Assembly (NCBI GenBank): GCA_036788695.1
Contig: DAIQMY010000001.1
Coordinates: 150,792-214,791, forward strand
Reading direction: 5' to 3'
DNA length: 64,000 nt
From: Candidatus Levyibacteriota bacterium
GTDB lineage: Bacteria > Patescibacteriota > Microgenomatia > Levybacterales > GWA1-39-11
Shown: positions 16,208 through 35,542 of the stretch, piece by piece
Numbering within the stretch: the stretch's first letter is position 1
Layout of the letters: every line of letters starts with the position of its first letter
The notes under the pieces: generated by a model
Seen by the model: only the letters and a program-made list of their open reading frames with translations
Database searches by the model: none
What the model was told of the DNA's origin: nothing
Made by a program: the position numbers and the translations under genes

Positions 16208-17932
16208 TTATCTTCCAAGCATTCCTTTAAAGAATTTTTTCGCTCCTCCAATAGCTTCAGGTGTGGTTGATCCGGCTTTATATTCTGCCTTTGCTCCAAA
16301 CGCCATTTCTTTGACACCACTAATACCTTTTCCTCCTACTGCCTGGGAAGCGCCAAAGGATGTCCTAATATCTTTTAGTCCAAAGTCCATAGCGCCAACT
16401 GCCTTTCGGGTTCTATCAAGTATACTTGGCATGGATATGATAAAGCCAAAGCCTATAAATGCCGCTATAGCAGGACTTCCGCCGACCGCGTCACCTATAA
16501 GCGGAGGAGAGAAGAGCCCACCTTGACTTCCTACGTTGCTCATAATTGTTTTCCCAAGTAATATTACGCCAAACGCCATAGGAAAAACTGATAAATGGCC
16601 CATGAGATGCCGTATCCAACTAGAAAATCCTAATTTACTTCCCGGAAATATTCCAGCAGTTATCCAGAGGGGAGCAACTATTACATCTATGAGAACATAG
16701 ATAAAAGATTTTATAAGCGTAAACCATACGCGGAACAATGAGAATATAATAGCAATGAGTATTATTAAAAATGTAACAATAGTAAAAAGGCTGATAATCG
16801 CTGCCCTGAAGAACGATTCAACAAAATTACACCCTCCTCCCGCAAACAACCCTCCTATGGGCGTATCCCTTAGCCATCCTCCCAATCCTGGCACATATCC
16901 CAATGCTCCTACGCCCGCTGTGACCCCAATTTTCCCTAGATCTACGACTCCACACCCAATAGAGCTGACGGCATTAAAGGGGGTGAAGAAGACCTGGAAA
17001 AAAGATGAGATGGTAGACTCTAAAAAGTCTATTGAGATATTTCCTAAAACCTTGCTAATGCCCCAGGAAGTTTGCCCGGCGATCCCTATAATTCCGGGAA
17101 TATGATTTATACCGCTCAGATTTGGTGTGTCTATACTAAATGATTTGTTTACTACGCCAAATACGGTAGAGGAGGTGCTAACATTTGTTGGTATAAGACT
17201 ATTAAATGTTAGAATAACAAGATAAAGGGTCACATACATAAAATCTATAAGAAGTCCGGCGATTGCGTAAGAAAAAGTGACTAAAATAAGCGCTATTATC
17301 ATTTTGGGGATTTGGTTTTGAATACTCATAACCGTACGTGCATCAATTTTTACCCTGAACATAATTGCAAGTCCCACAATAGTAAACCCTAAAACAAAGG
17401 CGAGGTATGCAATATCTCTAAATCGTGCCCATATTCCAACAAGCGGTCGTAACCTGTCAAATCCTACTCCGTTTTCTTTAGGGTCATTCTCTGCGTAAGC
17501 GCTGCGTGCTACGCCAAAGTTTCCTGCCATATATGCTGCGTAGTCCACTCCGGATACTGGTAGAGTAAAGGTTTCACCTATAAGTCTTCCCATGACCTGT
17601 GTTGCTCCTCCTCCTTGGGCCTCATATCCTATTTGTCCACTTTTTAGATCTACCCCCAAACAGGTTTTTTTTGGGTCTAGAGGGTTATATCCTGAAAGCA
17701 CGCAGACTGTGCTTGCTAGTGTATTGATGAGTGTCGCTTGAGTAAGCGTATTAAGATTTTGAGGAACTTGAGGGTTAACATTTCCATACAGCATTTGATT
17801 ATTCATTGTTGCGACAGTTGGATAGGTAGTTGCAGAAGGAGTAATTATGGGTGCTTGAGCAAGAATGGGTTTTATACTGCTTGCAATAAGAAAGAAGACA
17901 AGAACGTACAGAATATGTTTTAGTTTTCTCAT
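16208..17932 (-). CDS. Polytopic membrane protein, VirB6/TrbL-like candidate, with a signal peptide and an N-terminal extracytoplasmic domain followed by at least six TM helices
   Basis: Internal ATG at 17932 gives signal peptide MRKLKHILYVLVFFLIASSIKPILAQA (the track start at 17977 is TTG). Multiple long hydrophobic helices and Gly-rich loops, and its position in a T4SS-like island. Family assignment is by architecture and context only. Confidence 0.4.
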   Translation of the reverse strand: MRKLKHILYVLVFFLIASSIKPILAQAPIITPSATTYPTVATMNNQMLYGNVNPQVPQNLNTLTQATLINTLASTVCVLSGYNPLDPKKTCLGVDLKSGQIGYEAQGGGATQVMGRLIGETFTLPVSGVDYAAYMAGNFGVARSAYAENDPKENGVGFDRLRPLVGIWARFRDIAYLAFVLGFTIVGLAIMFRVKIDARTVMSIQNQIPKMIIALILVTFSYAIAGLLIDFMYVTLYLVILTFNSLIPTNVSTSSTVFGVVNKSFSIDTPNLSGINHIPGIIGIAGQTSWGISKVLGNISIDFLESTISSFFQVFFTPFNAVSSIGCGVVDLGKIGVTAGVGALGYVPGLGGWLRDTPIGGLFAGGGCNFVESFFRAAIISLFTIVTFLIILIAIIFSLFRVWFTLIKSFIYVLIDVIVAPLWITAGIFPGSKLGFSSWIRHLMGHLSVFPMAFGVILLGKTIMSNVGSQGGLFSPPLIGDAVGGSPAIAAFIGFGFIISMPSILDRTRKAVGAMDFGLKDIRTSFGASQAVGGKGISGVKEMAFGAKAEYKAGSTTPEAIGGAKKFFKGMLGR

Positions 17933-18029
17933 AGGGCAGGTAGTTTTAGTATGGCTCAAAAAGCAACAAAAAGTCAAGGAATATATAAGTAGGGGTTTTT
18001 ATTGACAACTATATATAAAACAGGGTATC

Positions 18030-18807: not shown

Positions 18808-18836
18808 TTGACAGGATAAATATAGTGTCTTACCAT
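18808..18836 (+). promoter_or_regulatory. Candidate sigma70-type promoter for nrdR (TTGACA, 17 nt spacer, TACCAT) with an overlapping NrdR-box-like sequence AGGATAAATATAGTGT (18813-18828)
   Basis: -35 TTGACA at 18808-18813 and -10 TACCAT at 18831-18836. The 3' half of the overlapping 16-mer (ATATAGTGT) matches the NrdR box consensus half acaCwAtATaTwGtgt; the 5' half is degenerate (12/16 overall). Confidence 0.3.
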
Positions 18837-18923
18837 AGTTTTTGGCACTAAATATGGTTCAAGCCTATGATAGCCAAATAAGAAAGATCAATTAGGCAAA
18901 GAGTAAATTGAAAACAAAACAGA

Positions 18924-19373
18924 ATGCATTGTCCATATTGTACAAGTCAGGAAACGGAAGTAGTTGAAACGAGAGTAGGTGAGGATGGCACAAATATTAG
19001 GCGTAGAAGAACATGCGCTGCTTGTCAAAAACGTTTCACAACATACGAGCGGATAGAGAACATACCACTAATAGTCAAAAAAAAAGACGGGAAAAGGGAA
19101 CAGTTTGATCGGGATAAATTGCAGAAAGGAATGATCACGGCAACTCAAAAAACAACAGTTACCGTTGTAAACATAACACAAATAGTAGATGAGATTGAGC
19201 GAGAGCTGCGGGGAGGAGAAAGCGTTGAGATTGAAAGTAAAAAGATAGGGCAACTGGTTGCAGCGAAACTGAAAAAGATAGATAAGATAGCATATATTAG
19301 GTTTTCAAGTGTATTTAGACAATTTGTTGACCTAGAGGACTTTCAGAAAGAATTACAAAAATTAATTAAATAA
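18924..19373 (+). CDS. nrdR: Transcriptional repressor NrdR (zinc ribbon plus ATP-cone)
   Basis: MHCPYCTSQETEVVETRVGEDGTNIRRRRTCAACQKRFTTYERIE is the canonical NrdR N-terminus. Located immediately upstream of the ribonucleotide reductase gene. Confidence 0.9.
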   Translation: MHCPYCTSQETEVVETRVGEDGTNIRRRRTCAACQKRFTTYERIENIPLIVKKKDGKREQFDRDKLQKGMITATQKTTVTVVNITQIVDEIERELRGGESVEIESKKIGQLVAAKLKKIDKIAYIRFSSVFRQFVDLEDFQKELQKLIK

Positions 19374-19375
19374 TT

Positions 19376-21826
19376 ATGACAAAACAATTAGAAGGACTAT
19401 CACAAAAAGTATTTTTAGATCGTTATTCCCTAAAGGATAAAGATGGTAACCCTGTTGAGAAAACTCCAGATGAGATGTGGAAGCGGGTTGCCCGTGGAAT
19501 CGCCGAGGTAGAGCCCCAAGATAAAAGAGCTGAATGGAGAAAGAAATTCTACAATGTAATGCGAGACTTTAAGTTTCTGCCAGGAGGTCGTATTTTTGCG
19601 GGAGCAGGAACCGGGTATGATGTTACTTACTATAATTGTTTCGTTATCCCAAGCCCTAAAGATTCAAGAGACGGAATACTAGACAACCTTAAATCTATGA
19701 TTGAGATTATGGCGCGTGGCGGAGGTGTAGGTCTTAATCTTTCTTCTCTGCGCCCTCGGGGTGCTCGCGTTAAAAAAGTAAATGGATTCTCATCAGGTCC
19801 TATTAATTGGGCAGAATTATACTCACTTGCTACTAAAGATATCGTGCAGCAGGGTGGAAGCAGGCGCGGTGCTCTTATGCTTATGCTTCATGATTGGCAT
19901 CCTGATATAGAAGAGTTTATTACCGTAAAACAGGATTTAACCCGTATAAATGGTGCAAATCTTTCCGTTTGTGTTTCTGATGCGTTTATGGAGGCGGTGA
20001 AAAAAGACGCAGATTGGGATTTGGTTTACCCAGACCTAGATGATCCTCTTTATGATTCTCATTGGGATGGAAATCTTGATGAATGGAAGAAATTAGGGGG
20101 GAAGGTAAAAGTGCAGAAAACCATCAAGGCAGCAGAGTTGTGGAACCTCATTTGTGAAGCGGCTTGGCGATCAGCAGAACCAGGTCTTCATTTCTTGGAA
20201 AGATCAAATAAAAGATCAAATACCTATTATTTTGAGAAACTTATTGCGACTAATCCCTGCGGTGAGCAACCCCTATCTGCATGGGCGGTTTGTAATTTAG
20301 GCGCTATGAACTTAGTTTCTTATGTAAAAAATGAGAAATTTGATTATGAAACATTTGGTGAGGATGTAAAAGTTGCAATGCGATTTTTAGATGATGTTAT
20401 TGATTCAACATATTACTTTCTTCCCGAAAATGAAAAATGCGCAAAGGATATAAGGCGAACTGGACTTGGCATCATGGGGTTAGGAGATGCCTTAATCATG
20501 ATGAAGTTGCGATACGGTGCGGAAGAATCTCTTCCTGTAATTGAAAAAATCTTTAAAACTCTTCGGGATAACGCATATATTGCCTCGTCTGATATAGCAC
20601 GAGAAAAGGGATCATTCCCCATGTTTGATCGTGAAAAATACCTAGAGGGGTATCATATTAAAGCACTTCCAAAACAAATTCGTGATAGGATTGCAAAAAA
20701 TGGAATTAGAAACGCTGTACTACTAACAATTGCTCCAACAGGGACAACAAGTCTTCTAGCGGGAACAACATCCGGCATAGAGCCGGTGTATGAATTCGAA
20801 TTTATTAGACGTTCTAAGTTGGGAATTGATAAGCTCTATCATCCTCTTTATGACCAATGGAAAAAAGATCACCCAGAAGAGAAGCGTCCATCCTATTTTG
20901 TATCCGCAAATGACCTTGCCCCTATGGATCACGCTAAAGTTCAGGCAATAGCACAGCAATACATAGATTCTTCAATTTCAAAGACCGTAAATGCTCCTAA
21001 TGCACACACAATAGATGACGTAAAAACGCTTTATATGGCTGCATATGATTTGGGCATGAAAGGAATTACCTATATGAGAGACGGATCACGCCAGGGGGTG
21101 TTGCAGCGTGAAGAGAAAAAAGAAGACTTACCTGCAGGTGAGGCAGGGAAAAAAGAAGGAGCAGTATCAGTTCCTCCTGCAAAGTCTCCAATTCTTCGCC
21201 GTCCCATGGTGATGCGTGGACTAACCTATAAAACACAAACTCCGTTGGGGGATGCATTTGTGACCATAAATAGTGATGATAATAACAATCCATTTGAAAT
21301 GTTTGTAACTATTGGGAAATCAGGATCAGACGTTGCTGCTATGGCAGATGCTTTAGGCCGTATTATATCATTGGTATTGCGTCTTCAGAGTCCAGTTGAG
21401 TCGCGTGAACGTGTCAGGCAAATTATTGCGCAACTTTCAGGAATTGGTGGAGTGCGCTCTGTTGGATTTGGTCCTAATAGAGTTAGATCCGTTCCGGATG
21501 CTATGGCAAAAGTACTTGCTGAGGAGTTTGAATTTAAGGTAAATGGGAGAGTGGTAGATTCACCTAAAACTGCGACTCCTGCAGATGCGGTACCAACAGC
21601 AGTTAATGGTGGAGCAAGCCTAAGCGCTACCGGGACACCAGTTATTAATGCAGATGCTGTAAGTCAGACACCGCAAGACACAAAGACTGCAACAATTGAA
21701 CAATTACCACTTGAGGCAGTAGAAACTCATTCTCATGCAGATGTGTGCCCACAGTGTGGAGTTGCCTCATTTGTTCATGAAGAAGGATGCAGCAAGTGCT
21801 ACAGTTGCGGACATGCCGAGTGTTAA
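19376..21826 (+). CDS. nrdJ: Ribonucleotide reductase, probably class II adenosylcobalamin-dependent (NrdJ-like), with a C-terminal Cys-rich zinc-ribbon tail
   Basis: RNR active-site region TNPCGEQPLS, a single large polypeptide with no adjacent small subunit, an adjacent PduO-type adenosyltransferase, and a C-terminal CPQCG...CSKCYSCG. Confidence 0.8.
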   Translation: MTKQLEGLSQKVFLDRYSLKDKDGNPVEKTPDEMWKRVARGIAEVEPQDKRAEWRKKFYNVMRDFKFLPGGRIFAGAGTGYDVTYYNCFVIPSPKDSRDGILDNLKSMIEIMARGGGVGLNLSSLRPRGARVKKVNGFSSGPINWAELYSLATKDIVQQGGSRRGALMLMLHDWHPDIEEFITVKQDLTRINGANLSVCVSDAFMEAVKKDADWDLVYPDLDDPLYDSHWDGNLDEWKKLGGKVKVQKTIKAAELWNLICEAAWRSAEPGLHFLERSNKRSNTYYFEKLIATNPCGEQPLSAWAVCNLGAMNLVSYVKNEKFDYETFGEDVKVAMRFLDDVIDSTYYFLPENEKCAKDIRRTGLGIMGLGDALIMMKLRYGAEESLPVIEKIFKTLRDNAYIASSDIAREKGSFPMFDREKYLEGYHIKALPKQIRDRIAKNGIRNAVLLTIAPTGTTSLLAGTTSGIEPVYEFEFIRRSKLGIDKLYHPLYDQWKKDHPEEKRPSYFVSANDLAPMDHAKVQAIAQQYIDSSISKTVNAPNAHTIDDVKTLYMAAYDLGMKGITYMRDGSRQGVLQREEKKEDLPAGEAGKKEGAVSVPPAKSPILRRPMVMRGLTYKTQTPLGDAFVTINSDDNNNPFEMFVTIGKSGSDVAAMADALGRIISLVLRLQSPVESRERVRQIIAQLSGIGGVRSVGFGPNRVRSVPDAMAKVLAEEFEFKVNGRVVDSPKTATPADAVPTAVNGGASLSATGTPVINADAVSQTPQDTKTATIEQLPLEAVETHSHADVCPQCGVASFVHEEGCSKCYSCGHAEC

Positions 21827-21904
21827 GATTGAATTAAGACTTATGAATTTAGAAGTAAATTTTTGTTTCAGAATTCCTAGATCTTAATAATTTGTTAACG
21901 TTGG

Positions 21905-22027
21905 TAACTTGGGTGGAATTCCCGGCCTGTGCCGCAACTGTTATAGACAGAAAACTTCGTTGACCGGTTCCGCTCGAGCAAGCTTTTTTATGGCCTTCTC
22001 GAGTACCGAGGAGGCTTTTTTCGTTTT
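21905..22027 (+). promoter_or_regulatory. Putative cobalamin (AdoCbl) riboswitch with an intrinsic-terminator expression platform, upstream of the PduO-type adenosyltransferase
   Basis: 21911-21942 GGGTGGAATTCCCGGCCTGTGCCGCAACTGT resembles the conserved aptamer core GGUG..AAUCC...GC.G.CCCGC.ACUGU. Downstream hairpin CCTTCTCG-AGTAC-CGAGGAGG (21994-22014) is followed by T6 (22016-22021). A duplicated CTCGAG element (21973-21978 and 21999-22004) could form an alternative antiterminator pairing. Confidence 0.45.
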
Positions 22028-22037
22028 TAAAACACAT

Positions 22038-22586
22038 ATGGTGATTTATACAAAAACTGGAGACCGCGGAAAGACAGCGCTTTTTTCCGGGAAAAGAGTA
22101 TGGAAGGATGACACCCGGATAGATGCTTATGGGACACTAGATGAGCTAAATTCTGTGATTGGAATAATACTGTCCTTTAATACTAAAAAGACAAAAGAGA
22201 ATAAATATATTGTTCGCATTCTTTTATCTATTCAAGTGGCAATTTTTCCAATCTGTTCATATCTGGCAGACCTTCCAGATACGCTTTCTGATGTAGATCT
22301 TGAACTAGAAACAAAAAAATTGGAAAAAGAGATAGACAAAATGACAAAAAAAATGCCAGAACTTTCTAATTTTATTCTACCGGGTGGAGGAGTGGTAGGT
22401 GCGAATTTACATTTAGCAAGAACAGTAAGCAGGCGGGCAGAGCGGAAAATTATAAAACTTCATAAAAAAGAAAAAGTAGATATTTGCGTAATCCAATATG
22501 TAAATAGACTCTCAGATGTGTTTTTTACCCTGGCCCGATACGCAAATTATCTAGAGCATAAAAAGGAGACCATTTGGGAGAGATAA
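22038..22586 (+). CDS. pduO: ATP:cob(I)alamin adenosyltransferase, PduO/MMAB type
   Basis: MVIYTKTGDRGKTALFSGKRVWKDDTRIDAYGTLDELNSVIG matches the PduO-type ATR N-terminus. The true start is probably the ATG at 22038 rather than the track start at 21909. Confidence 0.8.
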   Translation: MVIYTKTGDRGKTALFSGKRVWKDDTRIDAYGTLDELNSVIGIILSFNTKKTKENKYIVRILLSIQVAIFPICSYLADLPDTLSDVDLELETKKLEKEIDKMTKKMPELSNFILPGGGVVGANLHLARTVSRRAERKIIKLHKKEKVDICVIQYVNRLSDVFFTLARYANYLEHKKETIWER

Positions 22587-22588
22587 TC

Positions 22589-23929
22589 ATGAGTGAATTT
22601 CTTTTGCCCCAACAAAAAAACCACTTACCCCCTTTTTTCGTAGAGACAGAAGCAACACCAGTTATTCCCTCAATGGCTTTTGATGTTGCAAGAATTAAGA
22701 GAAGCGGGGAGGAAGACCTTTACGGTTTAAAAGATACTGGTTTTCAGGTGAAGACACAAATTGACCTATTGCTTGAGAATTATAAAAATGGGATTCCCCT
22801 CTCAAACTCATTTCAACAATTAGAACAGGACATCCAAGGTTTTAAGACAGAATACCTGGTTGAACTTCCTGTGTTTCCTATTGTTTTAGAGAAAGCATTA
22901 TATAAGGGAGAAATGAGATTAGTGGGGAAACTGTATGGAGGAAAGCCTGTAGTAGATGCGACTGATGATAAGGAAAGACATGGAGCGGTTAAGAAGTCTA
23001 TTAAAAAGATAGAAGAAAAGTTAATTGATGCGCCGGCAGGAACTATGGCTGTTATGACTAGTCCCAAGGGATGGAGTGGGTATGAAGGGATAACATATCC
23101 AGATTCTCAAACGTATTGTTTTGAAGTTCAAGAGGATGGTGGGATAAGAGGTTTTACCTTAAAAACAGACATGAGTCTTTCTCAAAACAAAGAACTTTTA
23201 ATGAATTTAGGAGTACCTAAAAATGATTTTAAGGAGGAAAAAGATGCAATAAGCAGCATAAAAGAAGTGGTAAGCAATGTAGCATTTATACCTTCAGAAA
23301 ATGGTAAAAAGATTGAAGATATAGTGCAAATAATAAAGCATATAAAAGGTGACGAATCAGCTTATAAGGATAGTAGTGGGAAAAGTAGGACTTTTAACGA
23401 GATGATAAATCACTTAAAAAACCCGGAACACTTGTGGACCTTAGACTCAAAAACAAGAAGATTAATAGATGATTTTAGGGAATACGCATCATACCGCTTT
23501 GCAACTAAAGACAGTCTGTTAAGGCAGGACTTGGGAACTGGTTTAGGATACACTGTTTTAAAGCTTATGCATGAGATAAGAATGCCCCAAATAAAAGGTA
23601 AATATATGGAAAAGGGTAAGGTCTATGATCCGGCTCAAAAAGTTGTGGTTCCCTTTAATGCACGGGATACTCTTGAGAATTTGAAAAAAATTGGTGGATG
23701 CGCGGGTGGAGGAAATAAAAATAAAATAGGTGATCCAGTTAAGCAAATTATTAACTCCATAACGCCTCGGTTAGGATCTACAAATTTGTTTGAAGATGAA
23801 GGGCAGGAGTGGTTTACGTGCCCTAAATGTAGTTTTAAGGCAGACGGTCCGGTAGGGAATCAGTGCCCAGGATGTAAAATTACCATGGAGGAATACGCTC
23901 AGGAAGAAGGAGCAGTAGTTTGCGCATAA
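22589..23929 (+). CDS. Hypothetical protein (about 446 aa) ending in a CxxC...CxxC zinc ribbon; unknown function
   Basis: ATG at 22589 lies 2 nt after the pduO stop with GGGAGAG 6 nt upstream (the track start at 22574 is TTG). C-terminal WFTCPKCSFKADGPVGNQCPGCK. No recognisable enzymatic motif. Confidence 0.5.
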   Translation: MSEFLLPQQKNHLPPFFVETEATPVIPSMAFDVARIKRSGEEDLYGLKDTGFQVKTQIDLLLENYKNGIPLSNSFQQLEQDIQGFKTEYLVELPVFPIVLEKALYKGEMRLVGKLYGGKPVVDATDDKERHGAVKKSIKKIEEKLIDAPAGTMAVMTSPKGWSGYEGITYPDSQTYCFEVQEDGGIRGFTLKTDMSLSQNKELLMNLGVPKNDFKEEKDAISSIKEVVSNVAFIPSENGKKIEDIVQIIKHIKGDESAYKDSSGKSRTFNEMINHLKNPEHLWTLDSKTRRLIDDFREYASYRFATKDSLLRQDLGTGLGYTVLKLMHEIRMPQIKGKYMEKGKVYDPAQKVVVPFNARDTLENLKKIGGCAGGGNKNKIGDPVKQIINSITPRLGSTNLFEDEGQEWFTCPKCSFKADGPVGNQCPGCKITMEEYAQEEGAVVCA

Positions 23930-23931
23930 AT

Positions 23932-24087
23932 ATGGATAGCAATATATGTGAGGTTTGTTTTAAAATAAAATGTAGAGGGTGCGGGTGGGAGCCGGATTAC
24001 AATCAGGTAGTTCTTATCCAAAAAGAAATCCTCACCGCCTGTCCTGATTGTGGCTGGAAACCAGGGGAATCTATCACTACCTCTTGA
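23932..24087 (+). CDS. Small Cys-rich zinc-ribbon protein (51 aa), not in the ORF track
   Basis: Manual translation gives MDSNICEVCFKIKCRGCGWEPDYNQVVLIQKEILTACPDCGWKPGESITTS*. Three CxxC-like pairs; the start is 2 nt after the preceding stop. Confidence 0.35.
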   Translation: MDSNICEVCFKIKCRGCGWEPDYNQVVLIQKEILTACPDCGWKPGESITTS

Positions 24088-24105
24088 ACATGGTACAATC
24101 CACAT

Positions 24106-24537
24106 ATGCCTCAGAAGTTACCTTTAAATGAATTCCTGAAAACCTTTGAAAAAGTTCCTCGCGTTGCAATAAGTCTTTTTATAAAAAACAGCAGCCATGA
24201 AATTCTTTTAACAAAGCGTCTAATTGAACCTGGTAAAAACACATGGCATCTTCCCGGAAGCTTTATTTTAAAAGGAGAACGGATAGAGGAGTGTATAGCA
24301 CGTATTTTAAAAACTGAACTTGGATCAGAGAGTAGTTTTCGTGCCTATGTAGAAAATGTATTTGAGGATTTAGAAAAAGACCCACGCGGTCACATAGTAG
24401 AGATGATTTATAGAGTAGAGGGGGATATAACTCCTCATGCTACAGAAGAGACTGCGGAATCATGTTATTTCAGTGTCTTGCCTAGGGATATAGGATTTAA
24501 CCATAAAGAAGTCCTCCGGGTTTTAGGGTACAAATAA
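24106..24537 (+). CDS. NUDIX hydrolase
   Basis: Nudix box GSFILKGERIEECIARILKTELG (G x5 E x7 R E x2 E E x G). Confidence 0.8.
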   Translation: MPQKLPLNEFLKTFEKVPRVAISLFIKNSSHEILLTKRLIEPGKNTWHLPGSFILKGERIEECIARILKTELGSESSFRAYVENVFEDLEKDPRGHIVEMIYRVEGDITPHATEETAESCYFSVLPRDIGFNHKEVLRVLGYK

Positions 24538-25525: not shown

Positions 25526-25972
25526 ATGAAAATTTTTAATAAACAAGCACCAGGAAATTTTAATGTTGAAGAGAGATATGAGGCGGGAATTGTTCTTCAG
25601 GGTCAAGAGGTGAAAGCCATAAAATTAGGGCATGCGGATCTAACCGGATCATACGTAAAACTTTTGGGATCTGAGGCGTATCTTATAAATTCCCGTATAT
25701 TCCCTTATGAATATGCGCGAGCGCAAGGTTATCAAGAGACAAGAACTAGAAAATTATTACTTCATAAAAAAGAATTATTAAAGTTAAAAAATAAACTTTC
25801 TGAAGGGAAACATACTTTAGTTGGTCTTTCTCTTTATGATACGAAAACAGGACTTGTAAAGATAGAGATTGGGCTTTCAAAAGGGAAAAAGAAACATGAG
25901 CGGGAAAAGGACGTAAGGCGCAGAGAATTAGACCTGCAATCCGAAAGGGAGTTTAAAGAAAAAAACTACTAG
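25526..25972 (+). CDS. smpB: SsrA-binding protein SmpB
   Basis: EAGIVLQGQEVKAIKLGHADLTGSYV and overall SmpB-like sequence. The tmRNA gene lies immediately downstream. Confidence 0.9.
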   Translation: MKIFNKQAPGNFNVEERYEAGIVLQGQEVKAIKLGHADLTGSYVKLLGSEAYLINSRIFPYEYARAQGYQETRTRKLLLHKKELLKLKNKLSEGKHTLVGLSLYDTKTGLVKIEIGLSKGKKKHEREKDVRRRELDLQSEREFKEKNY

Positions 25973-26058
25973 AATAGCCTCAAAACTGGACATTCAGCCT
26001 CAGATTTGGTATACTACATGTAATCTTTTCGAGGCCAGGAACGCTTCGAAAAGACTCT

Positions 26059-26459
26059 GGGGATGCAATGCATCGACAGGAATTGCTCTTTTACAACTGC
26101 AAGCCGGCGATGGTTCACAGCCGTAAAATAGGACCAAAAATACACGGTAAGTTTAATCTTACCCAGGGTCTCAAACGCGTTTTCGCGGATAGAGACATGT
26201 TTAAAGTAGGGCAACCTGCTTTTAACTTCGCTTAATAGCGCCTTGCTTACGCCCTTTCTTTTCTTAACGGATAAGCGTAGGTAAAAACCTTGTTAAGATA
26301 GGATTCAAGAAGTGATTAAACTTGAATTAGAAAAATTAGATCTTGGAACTGTTTCCCCTGTCAATTGGGTCAGAAATAGTTCGACAACAAAAAATTGACT
26401 ACGCTTGTAGATGTTTTAAAAAGTAGTTTTTGGACGGGAGGTCAAACTCCCCATCTCCA
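26059..26459 (+). ncRNA. ssrA: tmRNA (ssrA), about 401 nt, one-piece
   Basis: 5' GGGGATGCAATGCATCGACAGG (tRNA-like 5' end). 3' GGACGGGAGGTCAAACTCCCCATCTCCA (T-arm plus acceptor strand complementary to the 5' GGGGATG). Candidate tag ORF GCG GAT ... GCT TAA TAG (26185-26238) encodes ADRDMFKVGQPAFNFA followed by a double stop. Confidence 0.75.
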
Positions 26460-26466
26460 CACTTTA

Positions 26467-31078: not shown

Positions 31079-31150
31079 TGGGCGCGGCAGGATTTGAACC
31101 TGCGACCAATTGTGTATAAGACAACCGCTCTACCACTGAGCTACACGCCC
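31079..31150 (-). tRNA. tRNA-Ile with anticodon UAU (decodes AUA), 72 nt
   Basis: Reverse complement GGGCGTG-TA-GCTC-AGTGGTA-GAGC-G-GTTGT-CTTATAC-ACAAT-TGGTC-GCAGG-TTCAAAT-CCTGC-CGCGCCC-A. Clean cloverleaf with a 7-bp acceptor stem, U33, anticodon TAT, A37 and discriminator A. Confidence 0.7.
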
Positions 31151-34253: not shown

Positions 34254-34345
34254 CGGAGGAGACAGGATTTGAACCTGCGCGAGCCTGTTTAAGGGGCTCA
34301 GGGGGTTAGCAACCCCCCGCAATGGACCAACTATGCGACTCCTCC
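34254..34345 (-). tRNA. tRNA-Ser (anticodon GCU), class II with long variable arm
   Basis: Reverse complement GGAGGAG-TC-GCA-TAGTTGGTCCAT-TGC-G-GGGGG-TTGCTAA-CCCCC-(variable arm GAGCC...GGCTC)-GCAGG-TTCAAAT-CCTGT-CTCCTCC-G. Confidence 0.85.
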
Positions 34346-34411: not shown

Positions 34412-34496
34412 GGAGAGGTCGCATAGTGGTCTAGTGCAGCGGTTTACTAAACCGCCGTATCGCAAGATACCGAGAGTTCGAATCTCTCCCTCTCCG
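34412..34496 (+). tRNA. Class II Ser-type tRNA with apparent anticodon ACU (atypical); paralog of the tRNA-Ser(UGA) at 35456
   Basis: GGAGAGG-TC-GCA-TAGTGGTCTAG-TGC-A-GCGGT-TTACTAA-ACCGC-(variable arm GTATC-GCAA-GATAC)-GAGAG-TTCGAAT-CTCTC-CCTCTCC-G. The 5-bp GC-rich anticodon stem forces a TTACTAA loop, giving positions 34-36 as ACT. Confidence 0.55.
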
Positions 34497-35455: not shown

Positions 35456-35542
35456 GGAGAGGTCGCATAGTGGTTTAGTGCGAAGGTCTTGAAAACCTTT
35501 ATGGGGGAAACCTCATCGGGGGTTCGAATCCCCCCCTCTCCG
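35456..35542 (+). tRNA. tRNA-Ser (anticodon UGA), class II
   Basis: GGAGAGG-TC-GCA-TAGTGGTTTAG-TGC-G-AAGGT-CTTGAAA-ACCTT-(variable arm)-GGGGG-TTCGAAT-CCCCC-CCTCTCC-G. Confidence 0.85.

What the first reader, a model, noticed from the sequence alone, without database searches (positions are those of the whole stretch)
18808..24537. nrdR-nrdJ followed by a putative cobalamin riboswitch controlling pduO and two uncharacterised zinc-ribbon proteins
A B12-dependent RNR with its NrdR repressor is followed, after a 211-bp gap, by an RNA element. Its core GGGTGGAATTCCCGGCCTGTGCCGCAACTGT resembles the AdoCbl riboswitch aptamer. The element ends in a terminator hairpin and T-tract, with a duplicated CTCGAG that could form the antiterminator alternative. 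Downstream, in the same orientation and tightly packed, are a PduO-type adenosyltransferase, a 446-aa protein with a C-terminal zinc ribbon, a 51-aa triple-CxxC protein (absent from the ORF track) and a NUDIX hydrolase. A riboswitch-regulated adenosyltransferase next to an AdoCbl-dependent essential enzyme implies corrinoid salvage and feedback control. The two unknown proteins under the same control are candidates for novel corrinoid handling or remodelling functions. An NrdR-box-like half-palindrome overlaps the predicted nrdR promoter spacer.
Basis: partly seen in the sequence, partly recalled or inferred. Interest (0 to 1): 0.6.

Follow-up and report, generated by a model that had tools for sequence, protein, structure and literature searches.

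The report
B12 riboswitch operon with unknown proteins
A real vitamin-B12-sensing RNA switch sits after the B12-dependent ribonucleotide reductase of a Levybacteria (CPR) genome and controls a B12-activating enzyme plus two proteins of unknown function, and the larger unknown has a B12 switch in front of it in every relative examined, which marks it as a likely new B12-handling protein.

Summary
nrdR (18924-19373) and nrdJ (19376-21826) are followed by a 211-bp spacer. It contains a class-II cobalamin aptamer (21894-21963), a short P13 hairpin, and a strong terminator (21992-16 plus T-tract). The two CTCGAG copies can pair as an antiterminator.

The window copy scores 31.9 bits against Rfam RF01689, below the gathering score of 36.5. 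Orthologous spacers score 38-53 bits. A 24-sequence alignment shows strong covariation (score 0.57 versus 0.16 in shuffles).

Downstream lie pduO, a 446-aa protein (P446), a 51-aa six-cysteine protein (P51) and a NUDIX gene.

The new result concerns P446. Its family has about 450 clusters at 50% identity. It has no Pfam, NCBIfam or PDB relative. In all 24 loci with upstream sequence, a cobalamin riboswitch lies in front of it. In nine of those loci a second riboswitch sits between pduO and P446. In four lineages P446 stands alone behind a riboswitch.

Neighbours elsewhere include DUF4430/DUF6580 uptake genes and, in one locus, cobS-cobC-cobT.

So this is a B12-repressed corrinoid-salvage operon of a known kind that carries an uncharacterised B12-regulon protein. 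The biochemical role of P446 is inferred, not shown.

The parts
18808..18836 (+). Putative sigma-70-type promoter of nrdR-nrdJ: -35 TTGACA at 18808-18813 and -10 TACCAT at 18831-18836.
   Evidence: Consensus scan, 10 of 12 matches. The layout is conserved in orthologous loci.
18813..18828 (.). NrdR box 1 (AGGATAAATATAGTGT), lying in the promoter spacer.
   Evidence: 12 of 16 matches to the NrdR-box consensus ACACTATATATAGTGT. The right half, ATAGTGT, is conserved in 12 loci.
18845..18860 (.). NrdR box 2 (GCACTAAATATGGTTC), 32 bp after box 1 and downstream of the -10 hexamer.
   Evidence: 11 of 16 matches. The left half, GCACTAAAT, is conserved. Full palindromes occur in L004, L022 and L032.
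18924..19373 (+). nrdR, the transcriptional repressor (zinc ribbon plus ATP-cone).
   Evidence: TIGR00244, 183.2 bits against a cut-off of 124.65. Pfam Zn_ribbon_NrdR and ATP-cone.
19376..21826 (+). nrdJ, the adenosylcobalamin-dependent class II ribonucleotide reductase, with a TSCPD domain and a cysteine-rich C-terminal tail.
   Evidence: TIGR02504, 587.8 bits against a cut-off of 399.95. Pfam Ribonuc_red_lgC, E = 3e-124.
21894..21963 (+). Cobalamin riboswitch aptamer of class II, Cbl-IIb-like. Helices: P1 21895-21903 with 21955-21963; P4 21909-21913 with 21921-21925; P5 21928-21930 with 21934-21936 (loop L5 GCC at 21931-21933); P6 21938-21940 with 21948-21950; junction J6/3 AAAA at 21951-21954.
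   Evidence: RF01689, 31.9 bits, E = 1.2e-5. Own covariance model R1, 73.9 bits. Covariation counted on alignment A4.
21972..21989 (+). P13 hairpin: stem GCU/AGC, loop CGAGCA. It is the presumed partner of L5 in the kissing loop. A T-tract follows at 21984-21989.
   Evidence: The stem covaries across loci (UCC/GGA, GCU/AGC, GCC/GGC, CUUC/GAAG) while the loop is invariant.
21992..22022 (+). Intrinsic terminator: a 10-bp stem at 21992-22016 and a T-tract at 22017-22022. Its 5' arm (21998-22004) can instead pair with 21972-21978, which forms the antiterminator.
   Evidence: Terminator -16 kcal/mol, z = -3.78. Antiterminator fold -12.6 kcal/mol. Terminator scan. The complementarity covaries across loci.
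22038..22586 (+). pduO-type ATP:cob(I)alamin adenosyltransferase.
   Evidence: TIGR00636, 178.4 bits against a cut-off of 108.45. PF01923, E = 5.9e-54.
22589..23929 (+). P446, an uncharacterised B12-regulon protein. Invariant residues: E88, E129-R130, S158, G370-C371-x-GGG, and a C-terminal four-cysteine ribbon (C411, C414, C426, C429).
   Evidence: No Pfam, NCBIfam or PDB relative. Family of 452 representatives. Conservation across 189 sequences. Always under riboswitch control.
23932..24087 (+). P51, a 51-aa protein with six cysteines (CxxC-x4-CxxCxWEP ... CPxCxWxP). Its start lies 2 nt after the P446 stop codon.
   Evidence: Conserved directly after P446 in L001-L005, L008, L010, L011, L013, L026, L031 and L032. 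No family hit.
24106..24537 (+). NUDIX hydrolase on the same strand. It is probably a passenger, not a conserved member of the unit.
   Evidence: PF00293, E = 2.6e-13. Present after P51 only in L001-L003 and absent in the other loci.

Best explanation
SHOWN BY COMPARISON. The locus has two regulatory layers.
1. nrdR-nrdJ is transcribed from a promoter bracketed by two NrdR boxes. This is the classical NrdR autoregulation pattern.
2. The 211-bp spacer after nrdJ carries a class-II cobalamin riboswitch that controls pduO-P446-P51 by transcription termination.

INFERRED FROM THE ANATOMY.
- With corrinoid bound, the P13 hairpin (loop CGAGCA) is held by loop L5 (GCCG) of the aptamer. The downstream 10-bp terminator then forms and the operon is switched off.
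- Without ligand, the 5' half of P13 (GCUCGAG) pairs with CUCGAGU in the 5' arm and loop of the terminator, and RNA polymerase reads through.
- The architecture has no J1/3 bulge. P6 ends in a simple loop or a short hairpin. This matches the published description of Cbl-IIb, so the likely ligand is adenosylcobalamin, the product of PduO. That gives product feedback on salvage (about 0.6).

P446 AND P51. P446, and P51 where it is present, belong to the cobalamin regulon and act in acquiring or processing corrinoid for NrdJ (about 0.8). My preferred mechanism is an inference only (about 0.25-0.3). P446 is a cytoplasmic corrinoid-processing factor working just before PduO. The invariant cysteine in its glycine-rich GCxGGG loop would be a cobalt ligand or a nucleophile that removes foreign upper ligands (CN, CH3, OH) or helps reduce Co(III)/Co(II). 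Its four-cysteine ribbon and P51 would be metal- or thiol-based redox or docking modules.
For: Riboswitch:
- RF01689 hit in the window, E = 1.2e-5.
- Hits at or above the gathering score in orthologous spacers L001, L003, L004, L005, L025, L028 and L030.
- The aptamer is found after nrdJ in 17 loci by motif search and covariance model.
- On alignment A4, 86.5% of cells are paired against 61.7% in shuffles. The covariation score is 0.572 against 0.162, and at most 0.12 when partners are slid. 17 of 22 pairs show changes on both sides.

Expression platform:
- Terminator statistics.
- The P13 stem and the antiterminator complement covary together: GCUCGAG:CUCGAGY, CCCGAG:CUCGGG, UUCCGAG:CUCGGAA and CUCUUCGAG:CUCGAAGAG.
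- The Cbl-IIb architecture is as described in PMC7367189. Rfam model positions 9-17 are deleted in the window alignment, and bulged helix-1 positions 7-8 are matched by U-U, so the J1/3 bulge is effectively absent.

P446 in the B12 regulon:
- The order nrdR-nrdJ-riboswitch-pduO-P446-P51 is conserved in Levybacteria.
- A second riboswitch lies directly before P446 in L008, L022, L023, L028, L030, L031, L034, L035 and L037. P446 stands alone behind a riboswitch in L007, L009, L033 and L036.
- In relatives the neighbours are DUF4430 and DUF6580 (an ECF-S-like membrane protein). In L030 they are cobS-cobC-cobT. In L003 and L028 a PNPOx-like FMN protein follows.

Invariant residues: C371, E88, E129, R130, S158 and the four ribbon cysteines, across 189 sequences.
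Against: - The window aptamer is below the Rfam gathering score. It has two U-U mismatches in P1 and a C-A mismatch in the J4/5-L6 pair.
- Ligand identity and the direction of switching are inferred from sequence only.
- L5 and L13 are invariant, so the kissing loop has no covariation support.
- In several loci the antiterminator complement is only 4-6 bp long.
- P51 is absent from several loci (L028, L030).
- No B12 transporter was found in the 64-kb window.
Confidence: 0.78

Rival explanations
1. P446 is a carrier or chaperone rather than an enzyme. It would bind corrinoid inside the cell for retention or storage when B12 is scarce, or hand AdoCbl from PduO to NrdJ, by analogy with MMADHC/MMAA-type trafficking proteins.
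Against: A set of invariant polar residues (E88, E129, R130, S158, C371) looks more like an active site than a binding pocket. No G-protein or other known chaperone domain was found. P446 also occurs alone, without pduO or nrdJ nearby.
Confidence: 0.2
2. P446 replaces a missing step of nucleotide-loop assembly or corrinoid remodelling. It would be a non-homologous substitute for CobU/CobY (cobinamide kinase/guanylyltransferase) or for CbiZ.
For: In L030, P446 lies between pduO and cobS-cobC-cobT behind its own riboswitch, and no cobU or cobY is present in that cluster.
Against: cobS, cobC and cobT are absent from all other loci and from the 64-kb window. P446 has no nucleotide-binding motif and no Pfam hit. 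The Levybacteria-type operons hold only pduO, P446 and P51.
Confidence: 0.08
3. P446 is a B12-independent substitute for a B12-dependent function, repressed when B12 is available in the way metE and nrdAB/nrdDG are regulated in other bacteria. On this view it is not a salvage protein.
For: P446 always has riboswitch control. It often has a separate second riboswitch, and in L007, L009, L033 and L036 it is the only gene behind a riboswitch.
Against: It shows no similarity to any ribonucleotide reductase or other enzyme fold. In 11 loci it shares one riboswitch-controlled transcript with pduO. It clusters with uptake genes. No radical-generating partner is encoded nearby.
Confidence: 0.05
4. The window's aptamer is a decayed, non-functional copy, and pduO-P446-P51 are expressed by read-through from nrdJ or constitutively.
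For: The Rfam score is below the gathering score (31.9 against 36.5). There are mismatches in P1 and in the J4/5-L6 pair. No strong promoter was detected between nrdJ and the aptamer.
Against: All conserved core nucleotides, the P13 hairpin, the terminator and the antiterminator are intact. L001, the closest relative, has an aptamer at the same position that scores above the gathering score. The whole leader is conserved across roughly 40% protein divergence.
Confidence: 0.07

Closest known systems
Class-II cobalamin riboswitches (Rfam RF01689 AdoCbl-II, clan CL00101; subclass Cbl-IIb as described in PMC7367189)
   Same: It has the same four-way junction core (P3-P6) and the L4 loop sequence GUGNAANUC, the T-loop position in solved cobalamin riboswitches. 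L5 is GCC, and the ACUG...CAG core and a P13 hairpin in the expression platform are present. There is no J1/3 bulge, and P6 has only a small extension. Orthologues reach the Rfam gathering score.
   Different: J6/3 and the 3' strand of P3 read CAGAAAAC instead of the usual GCCAC-type B12 box. P3 is reduced to a single G-C pair that continues into P1. The window copy scores below the gathering score. The ligand has not been measured.
B12-riboswitch-controlled corrinoid uptake and salvage operons of other bacteria (btu, cbrT or btuM transporters together with a cobA/btuR or pduO adenosyltransferase). This comparison rests on my own knowledge of the comparative genomics of the B12 regulon.
   Same: A cobalamin OFF switch sits in front of an adenosyltransferase and, in relatives, in front of uptake proteins. 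The logic is feedback by the cofactor.
   Different: The operon is attached to the nrdR-nrdJ unit. It contains P446 and P51, which have no counterpart in the described regulons. Many relatives use two different aptamer types within one gene cluster.
CblC/MMACHC, BtuM and PduS/CobR. These are known proteins that remove upper ligands from cobalamin or reduce it ahead of adenosylation. They are functional analogies only.
   Same: The position in the pathway would be the same: between uptake and the PduO-type adenosyltransferase. BtuM uses a cysteine-cobalt ligand (own knowledge), and P446 has an invariant cysteine in a flexible glycine-rich loop.
   Different: No sequence or fold similarity was detected. 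No flavin or Fe-S motif was recognised. The activity is untested.
NrdR-box regulation of nrd operons
   Same: There are two 16-bp palindrome-like boxes 32 bp apart that overlap the promoter, and nrdR is the first gene of the nrd operon.
   Different: In the window each box is only a good half-palindrome. Complete palindromes appear in some relatives.

Membership tests
Rfam RF01689 AdoCbl-II (cobalamin riboswitch clan CL00101) | The window copy scores at or above the curated gathering score (36.5 bits). | tested here: not met
   31.9 bits, E = 1.2e-5 in a 501-nt search. There was no hit in the whole-window scan at gathering thresholds.
Rfam RF01689 AdoCbl-II (cobalamin riboswitch clan CL00101) | Orthologous elements at the same genomic position reach the gathering score. 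| tested here: met
   L005 53.0 bits, L030 44.6, L028 43.0, L025 39.8, L003 39.4, L004 38.5, L001 38.3.
Rfam RF01689 AdoCbl-II (cobalamin riboswitch clan CL00101) | The core helices P1/P3, P4, P5 and P6 are supported by compensatory changes. | tested here: met
   Alignment A4, 24 sequences. 86.5% of cells are paired against 61.7% in shuffles. Covariation score 0.572 against 0.162. P1 has 8 of 9 pairs with changes on both sides, P4 has 4 of 5, P5 has 2 of 3, and P6 has 1 of 3 (mostly invariant). Caveat: the alignment was fitted to the model.
Rfam RF01689 AdoCbl-II (cobalamin riboswitch clan CL00101) | An L5-L13 kissing loop links the aptamer to the expression platform. | tested here: inconclusive
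   L5 (GCCG) and L13 (CG(A)GC/U) are complementary and conserved in all copies, but they are invariant, so there is no covariation. The P13 stem itself covaries.
Rfam RF01689 AdoCbl-II (cobalamin riboswitch clan CL00101) | The RNA binds a cobalamin and changes gene expression. | not testable with these tools
   This needs in-line probing, ITC or a transcription assay.
Cbl-IIb subclass (AdoCbl-selective) | J1/3 is short and paired or mismatched, with no T-loop bulge, and P6 has only a small hairpin or loop extension (definition in PMC7367189). | tested here: met
   P1 runs directly into the G-C pair of P3. Rfam model positions 9-17 are deleted in the window alignment, and bulged helix-1 positions 7-8 are matched by U-U. 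P6 ends in a 6-7-nt loop or a single inserted hairpin. Selectivity itself was not tested.
NrdR regulon | Tandem NrdR boxes about three helical turns apart lie at the nrd promoter, and an NrdR protein is encoded. | tested here: met
   Boxes at 18813-18828 and 18845-18860 (12 of 16 and 11 of 16 matches to the consensus, 32 bp apart), conserved in 12 loci. NrdR TIGR00244 is above its cut-off.
Class II (AdoCbl-dependent) ribonucleotide reductase NrdJ | The equivalog model scores above its cut-off. | tested here: met
   TIGR02504, 587.8 bits against 399.95.
PduO-type ATP:cob(I)alamin adenosyltransferase | The equivalog domain model scores above its cut-off. | tested here: met
   TIGR00636, 178.4 bits against 108.45. 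PF01923, E = 5.9e-54.
Any described protein family for P446 (including CobU, CobY, CbiZ, MMACHC, PduS and the flavin reductases represented in Pfam and NCBIfam) | A significant profile or fold match. | tested here: not met
Rubredoxin / zinc-ribbon families for P51 | A Pfam match at the gathering score. | tested here: not met
   No hit for the window P51. The L008 orthologue gives only YnfU at 1.1e-3, 19.3 bits against a cut-off of 27.

The most novel reading that the evidence does not exclude
P446, with P51 as a partner in Levybacteria, would be the founding member of a new protein class with a new fold. It would process salvaged corrinoids in the cytoplasm of CPR bacteria. Using a protein cysteine and a Cys4 metal module, it would remove or exchange the upper ligand, or reduce cobalt, so that PduO can make AdoCbl for the cell's only ribonucleotide reductase. 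In function it would be an analogue of human CblC or bacterial PduS/BtuM chemistry. A still more radical reading is not excluded but is very unlikely (about 0.02-0.05): that P446 is a B12-independent replacement enzyme.
Probability: 0.3. Interest if true: 0.72.

Novelty: new variant of a known kind. Interest (0 to 1): 0.6.

Why it matters
CPR (Patescibacteria) cells have tiny genomes and cannot make B12. In these loci the ribonucleotide reductase found is the B12-dependent one, so getting usable adenosylcobalamin is probably essential for DNA synthesis.

Surveys of riboswitch regulons have repeatedly uncovered new B12 transporters and enzymes. Here such a survey singles out one family of about 450 sequence clusters. 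It has no known relative and lies behind a cobalamin riboswitch in every locus examined.

That makes a concrete open question testable with one purified protein: which proteins process and reduce salvaged corrinoids ahead of a PduO-type adenosyltransferase in minimal cells?

The locus also supplies a compact class-II aptamer variant (J6/3 = AAAA, no J1/3 bulge). In relatives, two aptamer types work side by side, which is useful material for studying corrinoid selectivity.

Tried and rejected
- Whole-window Rfam scan at gathering thresholds found no riboswitch. A local scan at E-value threshold and comparison with relatives were needed.
- P51 has only three database relatives, because such small ORFs are rarely called.
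- Literature searches for DUF6580, for DUF4430 with cobalamin, and for CPR with cobalamin and adenosyltransferase found no description of this operon or of P446.
- The Polaski 2017 paper on riboswitch selectivity is not in the searchable library. PMC6158498 deals with J1/3-J6/3, not with the kissing loop.
- Cluster look-up gave no taxon names for distant family members.
- I considered the GGAGG inside the 3' arm of the terminator as the pduO Shine-Dalgarno sequence. In the window it lies about 24 nt from the ATG, so sequestration is unlikely here. In L004, L005, L030 and L031 the ATG directly follows the terminator, and dual control is plausible there.
- I rejected the idea that P4 pairs with the CCGAG element, because the complementarity is not conserved.
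- I rejected NUDIX as a conserved member of the unit, because it is present only in L001-L003.
- tblastn searches for CobS/CobT/CobC and for DUF4430/DUF6580 in the window were negative.

Full report
ORIGIN AND GENES

The window is from a Candidatus Levybacteria (CPR, Microgenomates) genome. The 446-aa protein is 100% identical to an NCBI entry from that taxon.

Gene calls in the finding are all confirmed:
- nrdR, 18924-19373: TIGR00244, 183 bits against a cut-off of 125.
- nrdJ, 19376-21826: TIGR02504, 588 bits against a cut-off of 400, with a TSCPD domain and a cysteine-rich tail.
- pduO, 22038-22586: TIGR00636, 178 bits against a cut-off of 108.
- A 446-aa ORF (P446), 22589-23929.
- A 51-aa six-cysteine ORF (P51), 23932-24087.
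- A NUDIX gene, 24106-24537.

All are on the plus strand, with gaps of 2-18 nt after pduO. comF, smpB and a tmRNA gene follow.

THE RNA ELEMENT IN THE WINDOW

The nrdJ-pduO spacer is 211 bp. A whole-window Rfam scan at gathering thresholds found only tmRNA and tRNAs. A local scan gave RF01689 (AdoCbl-II) at 21895-21963 with 31.9 bits and E = 1.2e-5. That is below the gathering score of 36.5. On its own this is suggestive, not proof.

COMPARATIVE EVIDENCE FOR THE RIBOSWITCH

I collected 37 related loci using P446 as the query.

- The order DUF5667-nrdR-nrdJ-spacer-pduO-P446-P51 is conserved in Levybacteria-type loci.
- The same aptamer follows nrdJ in 17 loci.
- Seven of those copies reach the Rfam gathering score, at 38-53 bits.
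- I built a covariance model (R1) from nine copies. It scores the window element at 73.9 bits, and the aptamers at or near the nrdJ-downstream position at 32-85 bits.
- On the resulting 24-sequence alignment, 86.5% of cells form standard pairs against 61.7% in shuffles. The covariation score is 0.572 against 0.162, and at most 0.12 when partners are slid by 1-3 columns. 17 of 22 pairs show changes on both sides.
- The alignment was fitted to the model, which favours the structure. The slid controls and the variety of pair types in P1, P4 and P5 still make chance very unlikely.
- A further 2-bp interaction also covaries. It joins the two nucleotides between P4 and P5 to the last two nucleotides of L6, and it crosses Rfam's P6. 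I did not establish whether this is a known tertiary pair.

APTAMER ARCHITECTURE

- P1 runs straight into a single G-C pair where P3 would be.
- There is no J1/3 bulge. Rfam model positions 9-17 are deleted in the window alignment, and bulged helix-1 positions 7-8 are matched by U-U.
- J6/3 is AAAA rather than a GCCAC-type box.
- P6 ends in a 6-7-nt loop, or in some loci in one inserted hairpin.

PMC7367189 describes exactly this layout as Cbl-IIb: a paired or mismatched J1/3 and a short hairpin on P6. It says that Cbl-I and Cbl-IIb bind adenosylcobalamin, whereas Cbl-IIa binds hydroxo- or methylcobalamin. The prediction that AdoCbl is the ligand is therefore an inference from architecture. 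I put it at about 0.6.

EXPRESSION PLATFORM

After the aptamer comes a three-base-pair hairpin, P13 (21972-21983). Its loop, CGAGCA, is invariant. Its stem covaries among loci: UCC/GGA, GCU/AGC, GCC/GGC and CUUC/GAAG.

Next comes a terminator at 21992-22016. It has 10 bp, -16 kcal/mol and z = -3.8, and none of 200 shuffles folded as well. A T-tract follows.

The 5' half of P13, together with its loop (GCUCGAG), is complementary to CUCGAGU in the 5' arm and loop of the terminator. The alternative fold has -12.6 kcal/mol.

Across loci this complement changes together with the P13 stem:
- CCCGAG with CUCGGG.
- UUCCGAG with CUCGGAA.
- CUCUUCGAG with CUCGAAGAG.
- UUUCGAG with CUCGAAA.

In about 20 of 28 riboswitches the complement is at least 6 nt long.

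This three-way covariation supports two mutually exclusive structures: P13 with the terminator, or the antiterminator. The kissing loop between L5 and L13 is common to all cobalamin riboswitch classes. If L5 (GCCG) captures L13 (CG(A)GC) when ligand is bound, the terminator forms and the operon is switched off. Both loops are invariant, so that contact has no covariation support and remains inferred. The two copies are at 21973-21978 and 21998-22003.

NRDR BOXES

- 18813-18828, AGGATAAATATAGTGT.
- 18845-18860, GCACTAAATATGGTTC.

They are 32 bp apart and flank the -10 hexamer TACCAT of a TTGACA-N17-TACCAT promoter. The layout is conserved in 12 loci, some of which have complete palindromes. This is ordinary NrdR autoregulation.

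THE UNKNOWN PROTEINS

P446 has no Pfam or NCBIfam match. A per-member scan of 26 homologues at E <= 5 gave only weak zinc-ribbon or rubredoxin-like matches to the C-terminus.

A profile search of 1.84 billion cluster representatives found 452 family members at E <= 1e-3 and 277 at E <= 1e-30.

An AlphaFold model is confident over residues 30-335 (mean pLDDT 82.5, pTM 0.74). It has no solved relative:
- Foldseek gives E >= 0.1.
- The PDB sequence profile matches only the ribbon.

Across 189 sequences the invariant positions are E88, E129-R130, G132, S158, G161, G370-C371-x-G-G-G and the four cysteines of the C-terminal ribbon.

P51 has the pattern CxxC-x4-CxxCxWEP...CPxCxWxP. It follows P446 immediately in at least twelve loci, although gene callers usually miss it.

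THE MAIN NEW RESULT

The covariance model found a second cobalamin aptamer directly in front of P446 in many loci.

Between pduO and P446:
- L008, L022, L023, L028, L030, L031, L034, L035 and L037.

In front of a solitary P446 that sits among type-IV-secretion-like genes, with no pduO or nrdJ within 5-7 kb:
- L007 (and its duplicates), L009, L033 and L036.

Rfam confirms several of these independently:
- At or above the gathering score: L028, RF01689, 50.1 bits; L036, RF01689, 40.8 bits; L008, RF00174, 36.0 bits; L030, RF00174, 35.1 bits.
- Just below the gathering score: L031, L022, L023 and L033.

These second copies have a more classical GGGUGAA...CAGAUCCCC core. They share the same P13 loop and the same antiterminator logic.

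Counting the loci where P446 shares the first riboswitch with pduO, 24 of 24 distinct loci with upstream sequence place P446 behind a cobalamin riboswitch.

Neighbouring genes in relatives point the same way:
- DUF4430 (related to the beta domain of transcobalamin) and DUF6580 (an ECF-S-like membrane protein) lie behind riboswitch 1 in L008, L022, L030, L031 and L035, and next to pduO in L023, L034 and L037.
- cobS-cobC-cobT lie directly after P446 in L030.
- A PNPOx-like FMN protein follows P446 or P51 in L003 and L028.

None of the transporter genes or loop-assembly genes is in the 64-kb window.

INTERPRETATION

Shown:
- The riboswitch is real and is a class-II cobalamin aptamer.
- It is coupled to a terminator/antiterminator platform.
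- pduO, P446 and P51 lie downstream of it with no intervening terminator.
- P446 is a constant member of the cobalamin regulon in this part of the CPR.

Inferred:
- The switch is OFF when ligand is bound.
- AdoCbl is the ligand.
- P446 and P51 act in corrinoid acquisition or processing.

The specific proposal is a guess, at about 0.25-0.3. It holds that P446 uses C371 in its glycine-rich loop as a cobalt ligand or nucleophile. This would strip foreign upper ligands or help reduction ahead of PduO. The Cys4 ribbon and P51 would serve as redox or docking modules. The basis is its place in the pathway, its invariant residues, and analogy with CblC, BtuM and PduS. No homology supports it.

The alternatives (a carrier or chaperone, a CobU/CbiZ substitute, a B12-independent isozyme, or a decayed switch in this particular genome) are scored separately.

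COMPARISON WITH WHAT IS KNOWN, AND NOVELTY

The riboswitch is a new member of a known class, in a slightly unusual variant. NrdR control, NrdJ and PduO are standard. A B12-repressed salvage operon is a known kind of system.

What is new is the pair P446 and P51: a sizeable family of unknown fold that is tied to cobalamin riboswitches without exception in the sample. I found no description of it in the searchable literature.

I rate the locus as a new variant of a known kind, with interest 0.6.

Noticed in passing
L008 6600-6737; L028 4860-4938; L030 4733-4923; L031 4796-4869; L022 6717-6848; L023 887-1031; L034 4994-5071; L035 4785-4854; L037 1035-1117: Many relatives carry two cobalamin aptamers of different type in one gene cluster. 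Type 1 (GGUAA...CAGAAAAC) lies after nrdJ and type 2 (GGGUGAA...CAGAUCCCC) lies between pduO and P446. Why P446 needs its own switch, and whether the two types sense different corrinoid forms, is unexplained.
   Followed up: partly
L008 5107-6046; L022 5026-6110; L030 3193-4141; L031 3161-4118; L035 3200-4147; L034 1265-1777 and 2316-4644 (-): DUF4430 (related to the beta domain of transcobalamin) and DUF6580 (an ECF-S-like membrane protein) lie behind the riboswitch in relatives. In L034 a prenyltransferase/terpene-cyclase-like 573-aa protein is added, behind its own minus-strand riboswitch (4826-4759). Together these look like a CPR B12 uptake set. None of them is in the 64-kb window.
   Followed up: partly
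L026 3876-4070; L002 5925-6029; L003 6063-6144: One to four decayed tandem copies of the last 20-36 nt of nrdJ lie just downstream of the real stop codon. The repeated segment encodes CGHAEC plus the stop. The window has no such copies. Their origin is unknown.
   Followed up: partly
L002 3229-4263: nrdJ in this relative is interrupted in frame by an intein of about 1 kb that carries a LAGLIDADG homing endonuclease (LAGLIDADG_3, 6.9e-23; Intein_splicing, 4.9e-11).
   Followed up: yes
L004 2602-3554: Two small ORFs (138 aa and 177 aa) of unknown function are inserted between nrdR and nrdJ.
   Followed up: no
window 21926-21927 with 21946-21947 (alignment A4 columns 94-95 with 114-115): A 2-bp interaction joins the junction after P4 to the 3' end of L6. 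It covaries (GC, AU, UA, CG) and crosses the P6 helix of the Rfam model, like a small pseudoknot. In the window one of the two pairs is a C-A mismatch.
   Followed up: partly
window 16208-17977 (-) and L007 8352-9929: The 589-aa membrane protein upstream of the nrdR cluster is homologous (E = 7e-41) to the protein directly after the solitary riboswitch-P446 unit in Curtissbacteria. P446 loci outside Levybacteria are regularly flanked by type-IV-secretion-like genes (pilins, PrgI, TraC, VirB4-like ATPase). This may be conserved gene order only.
   Followed up: partly
L003 8502-8957; L028 6615-7091: A PNPOx-like FMN-binding protein (PF01243) follows P446 or P51 in two lineages. It could be a flavin-dependent reductant for cobalamin reduction.
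   Followed up: no
window 25526-26462: smpB (25526-25972) is followed by the tmRNA gene (26059-26462; RF00023, 105.8 bits). tRNA genes lie at 31079-31150 (-), 34254-34345 (-), 34412-34496 (+) and 35456-35542 (+).
   Followed up: no
window 21984-21989 and equivalent positions in L001-L004, L006, L025, L026: A run of 6-8 U follows the 3-bp P13 hairpin directly, well upstream of the real terminator. It may be a pause site that gives time for ligand binding. This was not tested.
   Followed up: no
L001, L002, L003, L005, L008 (record titles): The genome records are titled 'uncultured Gammaproteobacteria'. Their gene content and 60-95% protein identity to the Levybacteria window indicate CPR genomes, so the labels are probably wrong.
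   Followed up: no
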